Shown here one piece after another: positions 11,063-54,703 of a DNA stretch of 64,000 nt. The stretch comes from Octopus sinensis (taxonomy: Eukaryota), in the NCBI RefSeq assembly GCF_006345805.1, contig NC_043002.1:31806001-31870000 (forward strand). The letters run 5' to 3'. The notes below the pieces were generated by a model, which was given only the letters and a program-made list of their open reading frames with translations, ran no database searches and was not told the origin of the DNA. Position 1 is the stretch's first letter. Each line of letters opens with the position of its first letter. A program made the translations under genes and the position numbers.

Positions 11063-12029
11063 TAGGCTTGTAGCTGTACTCATTGTATATGTGCATGTTT
11101 ACTAATGGTGTGAACCTTAGTATGACAAACTGAAGACCATTTTACGGTACATCACTAAGCACCGCTGTTCATTAAAGTTTTAATAACCAATGGGACAAAT
11201 TTCTAATGTTGACACAAAATTTAACTTTATATAATCGATAGTATTTTTGCCATTTTCAGCACCATTTGTTTTTACTTTATTTTATTTCTACCCCTAAGCC
11301 TGTCGATTAATTTCTATTTTACAATCACAAGATATTTGGCAGCTTTCTAAAGTGTCTGGCCAACGTTCAAGTAAATATTTCTTCATCACCGATTCCATTT
11401 TGAAATCTTTATTTTCGCATTAATATATTCGTGGTATCAACAATTCTACAAGTCTTCCATCAACAAATGATGAATTTGACCTTATATATGTTCTGTCATA
11501 CATATACTGGTCAAATGTTTGCGTTGCTCAGAGTGGTAAATTATGTGATTGTCGTTTTAATAAGCTCAATCGAATTGAAAGCAATAGATTATATACTACG
11601 TGGATTATAATCTCTACGCATGCTGATTCTCTAGCCGTACATCACATTCGCAGAGCAAATGTTTTAAGTACCAGTACAATTGATGCTAATTTAAGAATCG
11701 TTTATCATTAAAACGGTTGTCGAAATCCGACAGCCATGTTATAATTTATAGGTGTCATTGGATCAACTACTACACTTTTGTACTATTTTGGAAGTTAATG
11801 CATTATGGAAGTGTCGACATTGTTTCACAAACAAAGTACAGTATTTATAGACTATATTTATATCGATAAACTGAGTCACATAAATATATATATGTGATTT
11901 AACCCGGTTATTCCTTGTTACACTGGATATAAACAACGTTTATCTCAGCGTGTAAAATCATATAAAAGTGTAAGTGATTGTGTGTGTGTTCGTCAGTGTG
12001 TGTATGGGCATGTTTGTGCGTTCGCGCGT

Positions 12030-12730
12030 ATCTGCTTTAAATTTCTTTTCTACGGCAAATTTTACCAGTATATCACCGGAGTGGCCATGGGAACTAGCAT
12101 GGTCCCGAGTTACGCTAAACCGTTTTTCGTTGACTACGTTGAATCTCAAATCTTTTTCAATTGCAGTGGTCCCACACCTGAAGTGTATGGTATATACATC
12201 GATGATTGCATTAGAGTTACCGTACTCCTTCATATTCAACGCATAATCTTCATTAAGGTCATCATTCTTCCTCCCAAGCCATTGAATTCACTTATACAAT
12301 CTGCTCCTCATTTCTCAATTTTCTTGATTGATAATCCAATCTCATCGTTCATAATCCAATCTCACTTTCGCCATGTCCCCTCTGTGTAAACCAACCGACT
12401 CTCACATTCATTCAGCTCAACTTACCCTCTTCCCACACGAAACTCTCTAAATTTTTCCTTCTTTACTCCAGATTACTATTCCTTCGCTTGGATACTATTC
12501 GTAATTCATTATCACTATTCCTTCGCAGTTTATGTTGCCATCGGCACGATACGTTTGTGACCCAGTCTCACGTGACGGTTCTCCAATTTATGTGTCGATT
12601 TTAGCCCCAGACCACTCACGCTGATTGCATCTCCGGATTCACGCCTCACACCAACCCCCATAGCAACTTGAACTTAACCCTCACTTTTTACCCTATTAAC
12701 ATATCTCTTCAACAGTCCAGCTTGCACAAA
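12030..12730 (+). mobile_element. Penelope-like element reverse transcriptase remnant
   Basis: FYGKFYQYITGVAMGTSMVPSYA...YGIYIDD (PLE RT QxxGxAMG and YIDD motifs); downstream KPTDSH motif near 12390; frameshifted. Confidence 0.85.
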
Positions 12731-43722: not shown

Positions 43723-46700
43723 GATTGATTGATTGATTGATTGATTCTAGTTTCAGCTTATGAGCTGTGGCCATGCTGGGGCACCGCCATTTGGTGTTGC
43801 TACTTGGTTTCACTTCATGGAGGCTTTCTAGCAACTGCTATTTGGTGCATGAGAGAGTTCGATGCAGCTGCCCTCATCTGCCCCTCCTGCCGTGAAGTTG
43901 GTTCATCTGGGACACCTGACAGAAGAGATCCAGCTTCATTTTAAAGACATCTGTATCCACCCCATGCAGGTCTCTCAGGTTCTTCGGAGGATATTGAAGA
44001 GCTGTGGGCCACGGAAGCCCAGGCTATCACAGAATCTTGTCCTACATCTTGATGGCAGGTTTGGAGTCCTAGGCACCACGCAGTGGCGCCCAGTTCTGGC
44101 ATTTGCGTAACTCTCGATGCCAAAGTTCAGGACACTTCCCTCCAGGATCTTCCAGATGTATATTATGGCATATCTTTCCCGCCTACGCTCCAGGGAATAT
44201 AATTTTAATCTCTTGAGTCTTTCCCCAGTAGCTTACATTCTGCATAGAGGCTATCTTCTTTGTGTAGCTTCGTTGGGTCGCCTCAAGTTCTGTGATCAAC
44301 TTGACACTGGATGGTGACCATAGCTGAGAGCAATAGTCAAAGTGGCTTAGGACAAGTGTCTTCCAGAGGACCATCATGGTTTCTTGTTCTCTTGTTCTAA
44401 AGGTTCTAAGAATCCATCCAGCCAGCCGTCTACATTTCAGTGTCAGTTTAGCAACATGTACATGAAAGGTCGCGTCATCACTCATGTGAATACCCAGGTC
44501 ACACACTGATTGTGCCTCTGGGATTGCAATCCCTCCGGGTCCAGTGTATTCATTGGGTATTGCATTCAGTTTTGCATGCTGATAGTATAAAGCTTGAAAC
44601 TTTCCAGCATTGAACTGCATGCTATTCTTTTCAGCCCACTTGTATATTTCGTCCAGCTCACATTGCAGGTGTTTAGTGTCCTCAGGGTTCTGTATTGCCT
44701 GTGAAACTTTGTATCATCTGCATAACTTGTGATCGTGGCTCTCTGCGTGGCTGAGGGCATGTCTGAGAGGGCCATTATGAACAGTAGTGGTCCCAGAACA
44801 GTGCCCTGCGGAACACCGCTCACTATTTGTGTGTTAATGGAGGTGGCCCCATTGGCTACTACCACCTGACTTCTATCCTTCAGAAAGTCATGAAGCCATT
44901 CTCCCAGTTTTCCAACTATGTTGAGATCACGCAGTTTTGTGACATATCATTCCATGATCGACTTTATCAAAGGCCTTTGCAAAGTCGAGATATATCACTT
45001 CCACATTTGAGTGGTTGAGCAGCCGTTTCAGCACCCAGTCATAGTGTTGTAGGAGCTGAGTTAAACAGCTTCTCCCTGGTCGGAAACCATGTTGGGGTCG
45101 GGCAGCAAGTCATTCTCTTCAAGGAAGGTGATCAGCTTCCTTCTGACTATTCGTTCCATGACCTTGCTGATGTGTGAGGTCAGAGAGATAGGTCTATAGT
45201 TCTTGGCTTCCGCTCTGCTACCTCCTTTATGAATGGGGCATATTTTACCTTCCTTCAGTTTTCCTGGAAGTTTGCCAGCTGCAAGGAAGCTCTGAAAGAG
45301 GAACTGCAGTGGTCTTGCTAGGACTCTCTTAAATACTTTTAGGAGGATTGCCGGAATCCATCGGGGCCAGTAGCTGAGTCTGTTTTCATTTCATCTATAG
45401 CCTTGGTTACATCTTCTTCCTTTATATCGATGTAATCTATCGTCGCCGCCTCTGATTTTATATCTGCAGTGTTAAAAAAGTCAGTTGGATTGGTGATTTG
45501 GAGATGCCCAAGGGGTGGAGTGAAAACACTCTTGAATTGCTCATTCAGTATTTCACTTACCCTCATTGGTTTTCCTGTAAGTGTGCCATCCTTTTCGAGG
45601 AGTGGCCCTATTCTACAGTGCACTGTAGCTGTTTCTTTGGCATACCTGTAGAAAGCTCTGGGTTAGATTTTATGTTTTCTATAGCCCAGGCTTCTCTGTC
45701 TGCTCTTTCTTTTTCATGGGAGAGTTGCAGACATTTTTCGATTTCCAACAGTTTTATTTTAGGCGGGACTTTTCACTGCTTTCAATCTGTTTGTTTAGTC
45801 GATTTGAAAATTTCGTACGCCGTCTCATTAAAATTTTCCTCTCTCTGGGGTTTTGTTCTTGTGTACAGTGGCTTTTCTCTCTGGGACACATTTGTAGCAT
45901 ATGGCTTGCATACAGACATGAATTGTTGAAGTTTCACGTCGATGTCTGGCGAGGAGAGACATTTAGGCCAGTTTTGTTTGAGGATCTCTTTCTCAATTTG
46001 TTTCAGTTTGCCTTATGGTAGTTCAAGCTGGAAAGATTTTGAGGGTTTCTTGTAGGCTGCATGTCCGTGCTCTCTTTTGGCCCGTACATGGTCAGCTCTA
46101 TCATGTTGTGATCCGAGAGTAGTGTCGGTGTCACTTTCACATTATGGATGAGATCCATGTCATTTGTGAAGCAGAGATCCAGTGTGTTTCCTGCCCTGGT
46201 TGGTTGGAGTATTACCTGCTCCATGTACAGGGTGTTGATGAGGTTCAGGAGGGACCTCGCCTGTCCTCGTTCACATCTTGTCATTCCTGGGAGAGAAAGG
46301 CCCTCGGGCCATCTGACATTGGGCAGATTGAAGTCTCCCATAAGAAGCACACCTATGTGTTGTTCTAATGTGGTTAGAATTTCTTCTATTTTTATAAGGC
46401 AGTCTTCAAACTTGCCCACATGGCTTGGGGCATCTGGAGGGCGATATGTAGCACACACAACTAACTCAAGTTGCCTGATATGTACAATTAGTGTGTCACA
46501 CACCGAGTTTGAGTATGACAAGAGGACCTGGGGTGTGAGGTCCTCACGGATGTACATAGCAACACCTCCATGACTCCTTTCTTTCCTGTCGGTCCGTAGT
46601 ACAGCATACTGTGGTATGTGTAACTCCGCATCTGCTATGTCCGTTTCAGGTGCGTTTCTGTAATTGCTATGCATAAGGCTTGATTGCATGCAACAAAGTC

Positions 46701-47413
46701 TCTCAGGAACGGGATCTTTGTCCTGCTACTGAGTGTTTGCAGTCCTCTGATTTTCAGTAGGAGTATCGAGGTGAGGTGTACGTTGTTGCCGGCGGTGTCC
46801 ATCCTGTGTCTGTTTGCTGTGGTGGTCTGGTATATAGTGGGTAGTCCCACCTGCGGGCTTGGGTTTGATGAAGCCAGGTCAGCTGCTGTACAATCTTTTG
46901 TGCCATGCACAAAAAAGATTGTTGCTCAGCAGCTGCTCTTTCGACATCATGTTGGCTGTTGTGGCGCGCACAACATCTGCGTACCTCCGCTTTGGGCAGG
47001 TGGAGCGTGTGGTCCATCCCTTTTCTTTGTGTTGATGGTTTGTCCATCTGCCTCGTGTCTCTGTGGCAGGGTCCCCGATGTGCAAAGCGGCAGCCTGCAC
47101 CTTCCTTTCCATGCCAGCAGGAACTCTCAGGTAGAACATACACACCCGTGTGTGCTGTTTGGTTCCATCCTTTGCGGTTCCACTTCTATTTCTGGTTGTT
47201 TCATCTTTGGTCCTGCTTGAGCTTTTTCTTTTCCTTTAGCTCTTCCAGTCCTTCTTTTAGTTCTTCTTCCTCCCTCTACCTCTTCACCGGGTTCTCCGTC
47301 TCCATGGCCCTTGCTGCCGGTTGGAGAACTTGCACCTGGGTTCACTTCCCGGGCAGGTTTCTCATTCAAAACCTCATCCCGGGCGTCCACCAGGTGGGGG
47401 TGACTTCTTTCAT
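43723..47413 (-). mobile_element. Near-full-length CR1-group LINE: partial ORF1 with Cys/His-rich region, ORF2 APE endonuclease plus RT, (AATC)n tail
   Basis: APE motifs ITETHL, DRKERSHGGVA, YRPP, GDFNLP, LDLCFT, SDHN (46003-46900); RT motifs SGVPQGTVLGPLLF, YADD, MQFNAGK, DLGI, DYCSQLWSP (44183-45623); several frameshifts. Confidence 0.93.
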
Positions 47414-51010: not shown

Positions 51011-52084
51011 AAATACTGGTGTTGTTTTTTATACTCGAGAGAAAATCAAAGAGGCTATCAGACATGCGCTTCGGGAAAAGTTCAGTTTCATCAACATTGT
51101 ATACTTGCTCTGGTGTGTAGCCCCCTTCAGCAATCATATACTTCTACTGGCCACGACAATAACTAGGAGCTTCTGTATCAGTACTCGCAGTCATTATTAC
51201 GTTGTGCAAAGTCATACGCTTCTTAGAAGTTTCATCTTCCCTTTTCTGCAAATCGTCAAATAAACTTTAGGCTCTCTGTTTTGTATTACCGTATTCATCA
51301 TCATCATTAACACCACCATCATCTTCCTGTGGGTTTTACACAAATTGATCGGTGCCAGTCGAAAAAATTTTGAATCAGTAACAAACACTCGGCAGTTTCC
51401 TCCGTCACCTGAATAACTGCGGTGTTGAGACGTTTCCAATCCTTAATATATTTTTATGTATAATTGATTAAAAGAAACACTACATGCGTTAAGGCAAGCA
51501 GAGATATAACACAACTTTACGAGGATGAGTTTCTAATTAAAGAAACGTTTTAAGTATCGCAATAAATATATACAGTTTAGTTAAACCACATTTTACTTTT
51601 TTATCTCTAGCAGAGGTCAAACAGATGTGACTGGCTTCAACATTTCATATGGCTTCATCTGAAATCATGCATTAATCATCGTCCTGAACACACAAGGAAC
51701 TGTTGATAATGCCTTGATAATATCTACAAAGATTTTATAACGTAGATATAAATTTATTTGTCCTAGTTTCCATAAAAGTGCAATCGTTCGCTATGTGGAT
51801 TAATTAATCAATTAACAGATGTTCAACATTGTGTTTGGGCAAACTCAGTTGTAAGTTACCCACATGAACAAGCGTTAAAGATGTGCTTTGACCAGTCATA
51901 TTGTTCTTAACTACACTGCCAAAATGTGTTTACAGAAACCCAATTCACTTATGCTGAAGCTGAAATTGCTTATGTGTGTATGTATGAGCATTCGTGTGTA
52001 TGCATCTGAGCGCGATTGTATGTATATATTATATATATATATATATATTATATATATATATATATTATATATACATATATATAT

Positions 52085-52482
52085 GGGTGCAGGACTGGCT
52101 GTGTGGTAAATAGCCTGCTTACCAACCACATTTTCCTGGGCTCATTCCCACCACGTCGCACCTTGGGCAAATGTCTTCTAAAGTAGCTTCGGGCCGACCA
52201 AAGCCATATGAGTGGATTTGGTAGACGGAAACTGAAAGACGCCCGTCGTATATATGCATATATGTGTGTGTGTGTGTGTGTGTGTGTCTCTGGGTTTGTC
52301 TCCCCAACATCGCTTGACAACCGATTCTGGTGTATTTTCGTTCCCGTAACTTAGCGGTTCGGCAACAGATGCCGATAGACTAAGTACTAGGCATATAAAG
52401 AATAAGTCCTGGGCTCGAATTTCTCGACTAAAGGCAGTGCTCCAGTATGGCCGCGGTCAAATGACTGAAAACTTAAAAGAGT
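52085..52482 (+). mobile_element. SINE family C, full length
   Basis: Aligns end to end with 49728-50108. Confidence 0.9.
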
Positions 52483-52529
52483 TATATGTATGTATGTATA
52501 TATATCTATATATATATATAGTATAATTT

Positions 52530-53350
52530 ATGTGAATGAAAGAGAATAATCTTGTAGTAGATTAATCAAAAGTTTAAAACCGATACCTTAGTAGCAAAAT
52601 CACAGCAGTGAACAGCACCGGTTGGAAAGGTAAACCATCTGGCGTTGCAACCGTGCGTTGGTGCGGATAATTGAAATTAAAACATTATTGGTGAATTGAA
52701 GAAATGGACTGAACGCAGATTGAACAGAAATCGTTTTATTTCATTCTACACGTGTTTCGAAAGGCACAATTACCAAATCCGATTGATATGGGCCATATTG
52801 TGTCTTTCTCTTCAGGAGAAAAAAGGAAATCCGTTGGAAAACAAACCAGAACAAAGAGGCAGAGCAAAAACAATCGAACTGTGCTCCTAAGAGCCCATGG
52901 CGAAACTGTTTATCAGTGTTGTTTGAGAACCGGTGGCTGAAAATAACAACGGGTCAGGCATCGGTCAATCATGGGGTGAGGGTGTATAGATGTTCTTTGT
53001 GGACCGAGAAAGAAAGTTCTCGGTCACAAAGAACATCTATACACCCTCACCCACATGATTGACCGATGCCTGACTGTTGAATTCTTCAGCCACCGGTTCT
53101 CAACATACACTGATAAACAGTTTCGCCATGGGCTCTTAGGAGCACGTTCGATTTGTTTTTTGCTCTGCCTCTGTTCTGTTTTTGTTTTTCCAACGGATTT
53201 CCTTTTTTCTTCCTAAGAGAAAGACACAATAGGTCCCATTATTCAATCGGATTTGGTAATTTGTGCCTTTCGAAACACGTGTAGAATGAAATAAAACGAT
53301 TTCTGTTCATCTGCGTTCAGCTCCATTTCTTCAATTCACCAATAATGTTA
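52530..53350. mobile_element. Large palindromic hammerhead-bearing element between (TA)n tracts
   Basis: Inverted arms 52681-53010 and 53017-53349 (about 330 bp) with a 6-nt loop; arms differ mainly by 1-nt indels. Confidence 0.85.
52744..52820 (-). ncRNA. Type-I hammerhead ribozyme (mirror copy with damaged core on plus strand, 53208-53288)
   Basis: Minus strand reads CTGAAGA GAAAGACACAAT...ATTGTGCCTTTC GAAAC ACGT GTA GAA: long stem II, palindromic stem III ACACGTGT, GUA triplet; stem I weak (2-3 bp). Confidence 0.75.
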
Positions 53351-53615
53351 TAGTATATATATTATATATATATATAATATTAATTAAGGGTAGAAAGGAT
53401 TATTTACATTAAGACCAGTGGTCTAGATATTAAAAAGAATCCGAAGATTAAAATATTTATATATACCAATTAAGGACTGACACGAAAAGTGGACAGTCAC
53501 ATGCTAGATATCGACGTCAAATCGCCATTACCACAAAAGTTATGTTTCTCAGATCAAACTCAACACAAAACCATAGCAATAAACAAGTGAAAAATATACG
53601 AAATAAAATAATTAC

Positions 53616-53680
53616 CCATGTACTAATTAGTTTTCAGCTGTTATTTTCCGCAAGGAAAACTGCAGCCATCATCAGCATGG
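53616..53680 (-). ncRNA. Type-I hammerhead ribozyme (mirror of 54426-54490)
   Basis: CCATG CTGATGA...CAGCT GAAAACTAATTAGTA CATGG; one extra A in the GAAA run. Confidence 0.75.
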
Positions 53681-54425
53681 TCCGTTATAAATGTAAATTG
53701 CTGGACTAGATGCAAACACGATACCGAAATATCGCGTGCATGGAGTTCACCTATTACATTTGAATATATCTTCAAATGCCTTTACTTTGCGCGTTGGAAC
53801 CCGAGAAAACTAGCTTGCAGCTAATAATTAGCAGCAGTTAATTTATCGGTTAGAGAACATATTTATTTATATAAAATTAATTAAAGTAAAATTGATATTA
53901 TCAATTAGACCAGTGGCTAGAATATTAATTAAAAAAGATCCGAAAATTTAAAATATTTATATATACCAATTAAGGACTGAACACGAAAAGTGGACAGTCA
54001 ACATGCTAGATATAGACGTCAATCGCCATTCACCACAAAGATATGTTCAGCTATTACATTTGAATATATCTTTCAAATGCTTTACTTTGGCGCGTTGGAA
54101 CCCGAGAAAACTAGCTTGCAGCTAATATTAGCAGCAGTTAATTTATCGGTTACAGAACATATTTATATAAAATTAATTAAGGGTAGAAATTGATATTTAT
54201 CAATTAAGACCAGTGGTCTAGCATATTAAAAAAGAATCCGAAGATTAAAATATTTATATATACCAATTAAGCTAATTATTAGCTGCAAGCTAGTTTTCTC
54301 GGGTTCCAACGCGCCAAGGTAAAGGCATTTGAAAGATATATTCAAATGTAATAGGCTGAACTCCATGCACGCGATATTTCGGTATCGTGTTTGCATCTAG
54401 TCCAGCAAATTACATTTATAACGGA

Positions 54426-54490
54426 CCATGCTGATGATGGCTGCAGTTTTCCTTGCGGAAAATAACAGCTGAAACTAATTTAGTACATGG
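54426..54490 (+). ncRNA. Complete type-I hammerhead ribozyme
   Basis: CCATG CTGATGA T GGCTG cag TTTTCC ttgc GGAAAA taa CAGCT GAAACTA ATT TAGTA CATGG: 5-bp stem I, bipartite stem II, 4-bp stem III, GUA at 54483-54485. Confidence 0.92.
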
Positions 54491-54640
54491 GTAATTATTT
54501 TTTTTCGTATATTTTCACTTGTTTATTGCTATGGTTTTGTGTTGAGTTTGATCTGAGAACATAATCTTTTGTGGTGAATGGCGATTTGACGTCTATATCT
54601 AGCATGTTGACTGTCCACTTTTCGTGTTCAGTCCTTAATT

Positions 54641-54703
<63 letters not shown>

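What the first reader, a model, noticed from the sequence alone, without database searches (positions are those of the whole stretch)
53378..54645. Retrozyme-like ~500-nt monomer arrayed in tandem, then inverted
About 2.2 direct copies (the second lacks about 200 nt including the ribozyme, with GTTC microhomology at the junction) are followed by an inverted partial copy carrying the best-formed hammerhead in the window. Tandem units with one hammerhead each are the architecture that yields unit-length and circular RNAs in known retrozymes. Production of such RNA here is inference.
Basis: partly seen in the sequence, partly recalled or inferred. Interest (0 to 1): 0.8.

Follow-up and report, generated by a model that had tools for sequence, protein, structure and literature searches.

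The report
Two-armed hammerhead retrozyme with Penelope footprint
This is one copy of a young, protein-free 507-base repeat that carries a predicted self-cutting RNA motif and sits in TA microsatellites as two back-to-back arms, each ending at a different fixed point; it was likely pasted in by a borrowed Penelope-type retrotransposon enzyme, a known kind of genomic parasite, and this damaged copy could not itself release a unit-length RNA.

Summary
In detail: 500- and 297-nt periods, a 196-nt deletion with GTTC microhomology, and an inverted arm with a complete type I hammerhead motif (cut predicted at 54485|54486). The unit is 507 nt, ORF-less and young (copies 98-99% alike; 287 exact ribozyme 25-mers), with arrays up to about 17 units. 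The inversion is a family trait, not a later rearrangement. In 48 of 48 complete two-armed insertions (18 of 18 held out), one arm ends at site A and the other at site B, 93 nt apart, both in (TA)n. This matches the Penelope 'tail' and its two RT start sites. Both arms usually share one haplotype (4 of 26 discordant, 16.4 expected), and ribozyme stems covary across sister families. Correction: each strand here has only one hammerhead, so this locus is a product, not a monomer source. Cleavage, circles and the partner enzyme are unshown. The scan has noted this kind before, here and in other genomes. New member of animal non-LTR retrozymes.

The parts
53350..53378 (.). Left (TA)n target tract
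   Evidence: Sequence; A/T run of 26 at the left end
53378..54271 (-). Left arm; sense on minus strand; 3' end at site B (unit position ~257), 5' end at unit position 150; about 900 nt; indel-rich
53380..53467 (-). Terminal 'tail' (site A to site B, about 93 nt in the family), present at this end only
   Evidence: TATATA occurs only at unit positions 159-166 and 252-257; arm maps
53616..53680 (-). Hammerhead motif of the left arm; one extra A after GAAA and one T fewer in stem III (variant or sequencing error); predicted cut 53621|53620
54045..54048 (-). 196-nt internal deletion junction (unit 383 joined to unit 73) with 4-nt microhomology GTTC; removes the second hammerhead
54271..54272 (.). 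Head-to-head junction of the two arms (unit 150 / unit 293), 1-nt overlap
54271..54650 (+). Right arm; sense on plus strand; unit 293 to 507 to 166; 3' end at site A
54426..54490 (+). Complete type I hammerhead motif: 5-bp stem I, CUGAUGA, long stem II, GAAA, near-palindromic stem III, predicted cut after GUA at 54485|54486
54643..54702 (.). Right (TA)n target tract
   Evidence: Sequence; A/T run of 56 at the right end

Best explanation
The locus is one insertion of a young, non-coding 507-nt hammerhead repeat (a non-LTR retrozyme), likely written into a TA microsatellite in a single event by a borrowed Penelope-like reverse transcriptase/GIY-YIG endonuclease. Shown: the unit, its hammerhead motif, tandem arrays, (TA)n targets, two head-to-head arms ending one at site A and one at site B, and mostly one haplotype per insertion. 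Inferred: intact arrays elsewhere are transcribed, self-cut (probably as a double hammerhead through the near-palindromic stem III) and ligated to a 507-nt circle. A dimeric PLE enzyme would nick both target strands and start one cDNA at A and the other at B, usually on the same RNA. Each cDNA would run round the template for 0.2-17 units, and the two growing ends would be joined through 0-8 nt of microhomology. The 196-nt deletion is likely a microhomology slip. This copy has one ribozyme per strand and is a dead-end product. Odds: retrozyme with PLE-type two-arm insertion about 0.9; circle as the template about 0.6.
For: Family: 1314 first-look candidates, 40 scored, best places 98-100% identical; 287 exact ribozyme 25-mers, control 0. 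Ends: 30 of 30 complete two-armed insertions in the first 42 loci and 18 of 18 in 23 held-out loci have one A and one B end; one further locus has a broken arm; 18 single-armed loci all end at A (13) or B (5). Short-read contigs of X15 break into TA-rich loose ends at A (15) and B (11). Haplotypes: 4 of 26 loci discordant between arms against a permutation mean of 16.4, minimum 8 in 10,000; diagnostic alleles fixed in all copies in 20 of 26 cases. The window has an allele in 3 of 3 copies on both arms that none of the other first-set loci showed. All 18 hit segments of the longest array that cover them share four subfamily alleles on both arms. 51 of 97 arms exceed one unit, so ends are not set by the ribozyme cut. 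Ribozyme: 6 of 9 stem I/III pairs show double changes, 99% of cells paired, 0 of 500 shuffles; stem II also differs compensatorily in the sister family (read). The circular monomer folds at z -7.5. Literature: PLE insertions have an inverted 5'-truncated copy and a tail at one end (PMC8557442); a purified PLE cuts and extends both strands, is predicted dimeric and starts RT at two sites that bound the tail (PMC11167929). Intact PLE ORFs exist in this genome.
Against: No partner PLE sharing sequence with the unit was found among about 85 PLE-anchored loci from at least four families. Arrays are not clonal: linked minor alleles recur in non-adjacent units of the longest array and in 2-3 units of other loci, which a single circle does not give. 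Four of 26 loci, including this one at one site, differ between arms. The diagnostic sites were picked from the same data. In the older sister family one locus is A/A (L183) beside 16 A/B and one broken, and its B site has little TA homology. The active ribozyme fold is 2.6 kcal/mol above the minimum and stem III pairs at only about 0.17 probability; the 91-nt region folds no better than chance (z -1.85). In vitro, the PAc element used uncleaved RNA and did not need its ribozyme, and 8 of 9 Xenopus retrozyme dimers did not cleave.
Confidence: 0.62

Rival explanations
1. Same element and same PLE-type two-site priming, but the template is an uncleaved linear multimer transcribed from an existing array (or monomers joined by template jumps), and arrays lengthen afterwards at the DNA level; no circle is needed.
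For: Scattered linked minor alleles inside arrays; side-by-side duplicated insertions at L075 and L215; PAc used unprocessed RNA in vitro. Fixed ends at A and B say nothing about circularity.
Against: Subfamily alleles are fixed across units in 20 of 26 cases, which needs a monomer bottleneck at some step. Alleles shared between loci but partial within them were few, as for recurrent change. Copying of linear multimers would shorten arrays each round, yet arms reach 8.6 kb. Covariation shows the ribozyme was under selection.
Confidence: 0.28
2. The copies are terminal repeats or 5'-truncated 3' ends of an autonomous PLE not yet found, not a self-contained retrozyme.
For: The footprint is that of PLEs; the partner search was limited to top-scoring families.
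Against: The unit closes on itself for up to 17 turns, has no ORF and has no PLE protein match (best E 3.1). Only 3 of 66 fetched stretches hold PLE fragments, none upstream-contiguous with an arm.
Confidence: 0.05
3. The inversion and deletion are long-read fold-back or assembly artefacts, or a chance later rearrangement of a satellite.
For: The left arm is indel-rich; no contig spanned the locus.
Against: The arms are not mirror images: they end at different fixed sites and join at different unit positions, in 48 of 48 cases on many contigs. Only the 196-nt deletion is locus-specific and unconfirmed.
Confidence: 0.05

Closest known systems
Animal non-LTR retrozymes (Cervera and de la Pena 2020, PMC7229834; Li, Clavereau and Pollet 2026, bioRxiv 10.64898/2026.07.22.740005)
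   Same: ORF-less, low-GC tandem units with one type I hammerhead each; structured predicted circle; co-existence with PLEs; PLE mobilisation proposed in both papers.
   Different: 507 nt is above the 150-450 bp of the 2020 paper but within the 51-972 bp of the preprint. The word 'inverted' does not occur in the 2020 main text, and the parts of the preprint read (1-3 of 5) describe no two-armed insertions or fixed ends. Cleavage and circles are shown there, not here. No homology to a PLE terminal repeat was found here.
Penelope-like element insertion structure (PMC8557442; PMC3846280; PMC11167929)
   Same: Partial tandem plus inverted 5'-truncated copy, head-to-head; tail at one end; two start sites; AT-rich or (TA)n targets; microhomology joins.
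   Different: No RT/GIY-YIG ORF. The tail is about 93 nt, not 30-40. The tail is described as optional or 'often' one-sided, whereas here it is one-sided in 48 of 48. Both start sites of the young family are TA runs able to pair with the target, whereas PAc started at sites not homologous to the cut DNA.
Twin priming of LINE-1 (recalled, not read here)
   Same: Both target ends prime cDNA and the products join head-to-head by microhomology.
   Different: L1's second primer anneals at variable internal sites on a linear RNA and the arms do not overlap; here both sites are fixed and both arms can cover the unit many times.

Membership tests
Animal non-LTR retrozyme | Type I hammerhead motif in the repeat unit | tested here: met
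   Core and stems complete; covariation; no Rfam model matched
Animal non-LTR retrozyme | Head-to-tail tandem units of a few hundred bases, dispersed in many loci | tested here: met
   507-nt period, 65 loci mapped, up to about 17 units
Animal non-LTR retrozyme | No protein coding; GC under 50% | tested here: met
   Six frames closed; GC 33%; no PLE protein match
Animal non-LTR retrozyme | [quoted passage not shown] | tested here: met
   Runs of exact ribozyme 25-mers about 506 nt apart
Animal non-LTR retrozyme | Same criterion at this locus | tested here: not met
   One hammerhead core per strand, at 53669 and 54431
Animal non-LTR retrozyme | Highly self-paired predicted circle | tested here: met
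   Circular fold -138.8 kcal/mol, z -7.5 against 60 shuffles; antisense z -5.0
Animal non-LTR retrozyme | Self-cleavage in vitro | not testable with these tools
   Prediction only
Animal non-LTR retrozyme | Unit-length linear and circular RNA in tissues | not testable with these tools
   Only contigs of runs not on record as RNA were available
Animal non-LTR retrozyme | No LTR, primer-binding site or polypurine tract | not tested
   No dedicated scan; ends run straight into (TA)n
Animal non-LTR retrozyme | Homology to the terminal repeat of a resident PLE | tested here: inconclusive
   None among about 85 PLE-anchored loci; sample limited to top hits of three searches
Autonomous Penelope-like element | ORF with RT and GIY-YIG endonuclease | tested here: not met
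PLE insertion footprint | Inverted 5'-truncated copy adjacent head-to-head | tested here: met
   49 two-armed insertions in 47 of 65 loci
PLE insertion footprint | Tail at one end only, bounded by two start sites | tested here: met
   48 of 48 A/B; length about 93 nt rather than 30-40
PLE insertion footprint | Target-site duplication | tested here: inconclusive
   Hidden by (TA)n; a G/C-containing flank duplication in 2 of 49 two-armed insertions, one of them a simple repeat

The most novel reading that the evidence does not exclude
A dimeric Penelope-type enzyme obligately primes both broken target ends on one small RNA circle, one subunit at site A and the other at site B, and copies it by double rolling-circle reverse transcription. 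This would explain in one mechanism the PLE tail, the head-to-head inversion and retrozyme tandem arrays, and a 507-nt circle plus a (TA)n duplex would reconstitute it.
Probability: 0.4. Interest if true: 0.72.

Novelty: new member of a known kind. Interest (0 to 1): 0.45.

Why it matters
How PLEs make their tandem/inverted insertions and one-sided tail is called open in PMC8557442, and PLE mobilisation of animal retrozymes rests on co-occurrence and terminal-repeat similarity. A young family with two fixed start sites and a strict one-A-one-B rule gives a small defined substrate and a sharp prediction for an in vitro test. The element class itself is known, this copy is a damaged product, and the scan has met the same architecture repeatedly, so the single locus is not surprising.

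Tried and rejected
Rfam: no hammerhead model hit in the 150 of 198 rows listed for the whole window or in the region alone. Expression: no RNA holder listed (19 of 24 runs hold the unit, none on record as RNA); this is no evidence either way. One contig of X9 begins at 54486, but contigs cannot show RNA ends and a branch point explains it equally. Locus junctions: no contig bridged them; uninformative. Source of the stem III variant seen in X1, X5 and X9 contigs: 0 exact matches in G000. Arm 5' ends at the ribozyme cut: the raw test gave 9 of 98 in unit positions 1-12 (p 0.0006), but inspection showed that four were alignment-boundary artefacts. Five of 98 remain against 2.3 expected, one exactly at the cut; rejected as evidence. 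Partner search: GIY-YIG family search, two protein searches and 40 fetched stretches gave intact PLE families but no shared terminal sequence. A GIY-YIG remnant in the unit: not supported. Target-site duplications: not resolvable. Sequence look-up in earlier findings: none. Print: searches listed no paper on this family or on an A/B rule in retrozymes. The supplement of PMC7229834 could not be read, nor bioRxiv supplements; they may list related elements or insertion structures.

Full report
Observation. The window's self-comparison gives three direct segments and one inverted segment. Against a 507-nt unit cut from a real tandem copy, numbered from the predicted cleavage site, the locus reads: (TA)n; left arm, minus-strand sense, unit 257 to 1, 507 to 73, jump to 383, down to 150; junction at 54271/54272; right arm, plus-strand sense, unit 293 to 507, 1 to 166; (TA)n. 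The jump removes 196 nt with GTTC on both sides. The plus-strand hammerhead (54426-54490) is complete, and the motif appears in 0 of 5000 shuffled units. Rfam does not recognise it. All six frames are closed and GC is 33%. The left arm is indel-rich and the right arm is clean, so fine detail on the left may be sequencing error (inference).

Family. G000 (2.72 Gb, animal-like; earlier scan notes call it an octopus, not tested here) gave 1314 first-look candidates with 40 scored at 98-100% identity and 287 exact copies of a 25-nt ribozyme word. I mapped 42 distinct loci from two DNA searches, then 23 more taken from the first 100 of the 287 pattern hits as a held-out set. Substitution distance is 0.7% within and 1.0% between loci. 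Arms have a median length of about 530 nt; 51 of 97 exceed one unit and the longest is 8,615 nt. The unit also occurs in runs under four organism labels.

The two-end rule. The unit has TATATA only at positions 159-166 (A) and 252-257 (B), 93 nt apart. Of 49 two-armed insertions, 48 are complete and every one has one A and one B end: 30 of 30 in the first set and 18 of 18 held out. The 49th has a broken arm. Two pairs are side-by-side duplicates, so 46 are independent. All 18 single-armed loci end at A (13) or B (5). If ends were independent and equally likely, 18 of 18 has probability about 4e-6 (arithmetic). Short-read contigs of X15 show TA-rich loose ends at the same two places. Head-to-head junctions fall throughout the unit; 31 of 49 have 0-8 nt overlap, 17 have a gap of 1-33 nt and one a 24-nt palindromic overlap. 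In an older sister family, about 80% identical, with a 91-nt tail, the query favoured B-ended arms: the second arm ended at A in 16 loci, one was broken and one locus was A/A. An autonomous PLE family in the same genome also ends at two sites about 57 nt apart (5 short, 9 long, 3 unreadable of 17 rows, read by eye).

One template per insertion, mostly. At nine diagnostic sites chosen from the same data, arms disagreed in 4 of 26 loci against a permutation mean of 16.4 (minimum 8 in 10,000). Alleles were fixed across all copies in 20 of 26 cases. The window carries one allele in 3 of 3 copies on both arms that no other first-set locus showed, but its arms differ at another site. Against a purely clonal origin: linked minor alleles recur in non-adjacent units of the longest array and in 2-3 units elsewhere. 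These could be later exchange, mixed templates or polishing error.

Ribozyme. Across this family and three related ones, stems I and III keep pairing in 99% of 103 cells, with double changes at 6 of 9 pairs and 0 of 500 shuffles reaching that (related sequences inflate such controls). Stem III stays palindromic or nearly so, as in ribozymes that cut as dimers (PMC7229834). The active fold is 2.6 kcal/mol above the minimum. The circular monomer folds far better than shuffles (z -7.5), but so does the antisense (z -5.0). Arm 5' ends are not enriched at the cut after correction. This locus has one core per strand, so it cannot yield a cut-to-cut monomer.

Mechanism. Shown: structure, targets, two fixed ends, shared haplotypes, conserved ribozyme pairing. 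From literature: a purified PLE protein cuts and extends both target strands, is predicted to be a dimer and starts RT at two internal sites that bound the tail (PMC11167929); animal retrozymes self-cleave and accumulate as circles (PMC7229834). Inferred: a PLE enzyme acting in trans primes one arm at A and one at B, most often on one RNA, likely a circle, and the cDNA ends are joined by microhomology. The partner was not found: at least four PLE families with long ORFs share no terminal sequence with the unit. The main rival is a linear multimer template with DNA-level expansion.

Comparison and novelty. It meets the sequence-level criteria of animal non-LTR retrozymes; cleavage and circles are untested. 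It is not an autonomous PLE but carries the PLE insertion footprint, with a longer tail than the 30-40 nt reported. Searches listed no description of this family or of a strict two-end rule in retrozymes; unread supplements may bear on that. Papers seen: bioRxiv 10.64898/2026.07.22.740005, parts 1-3 of 5; PMC7229834, passages and parts 2-4 of 6; PMC8557442, 12 of 18 passages; PMC3846280, 12 of 16 passages; PMC11167929, parts 1-2 of 4; PMC13282606, 4 passages, with no mention of ribozymes or retrozymes. L1 twin priming is recalled. The scan's index holds 21 findings with these words in at least 3 genomes and several sister families in this genome; these are leads, not support.

Verdict. Real, well supported as a new member of a known kind, with a clean and testable insertion rule. 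Interest 0.45.

Noticed in passing
window 52526-53352: A second, unrelated head-to-head element shares the left TA tract: arms 89.6% alike over 690 columns, the left arm about 150 nt longer than the right (two different ends again), and a hammerhead-like core in each arm (intact CUGAAGA on the left). Similar two-armed copies lie in L128 and L206.
   Followed up: partly
window 54479 (runs X1, X5, X9 against X15): Contigs of three runs from three studies, only guessed to be RNA, carry T>G in the stem III loop; X15 lists none and G000 has no exact match. A 451-nt contig in X1 runs through A, B and the ribozyme in unit order. Could be an allele or one source locus; not evidence of transcription.
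   Followed up: partly
L103:7260-8530, L068:1900-2400, L115:5500-6400, L105:6800-7700: Several further hammerhead-bearing or related repeat families with head-to-head structure; some keep a GACCACT-like motif in the tail, a candidate protein-binding site.
   Followed up: partly
L101, L105 (G000:C1:207.47 Mb; C19:35.63 Mb): Young autonomous PLE family with two overlapping frames (about 479 and 781 aa; GIY-YIG at the C-terminus), many near-identical copies, about 1-kb 3' region and only a degenerate hammerhead-like motif.
   Followed up: partly
G000:C5:61583300-61592700 (L216, L217): Longest array seen, about 17 units in one arm; best candidate for cloning intact dimers and for testing unit heterogeneity.
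   Followed up: partly
window 11898-12389 (+), 38946 (-), 24644 (-): A PLE reverse-transcriptase fragment and two other hammerhead-like motifs of different families.
   Followed up: partly
window 44183-46725 (-): Frameshifted LINE with endonuclease and RT motifs, CR1-like by recall.
   Followed up: no
window 52080-52480: SINE-like repeats resembling those common in octopus genomes (recalled, not tested).
   Followed up: no
L075, L215: Whole two-armed insertions repeated side by side, 600 and 25 nt apart: local duplication or assembly redundancy.
   Followed up: no
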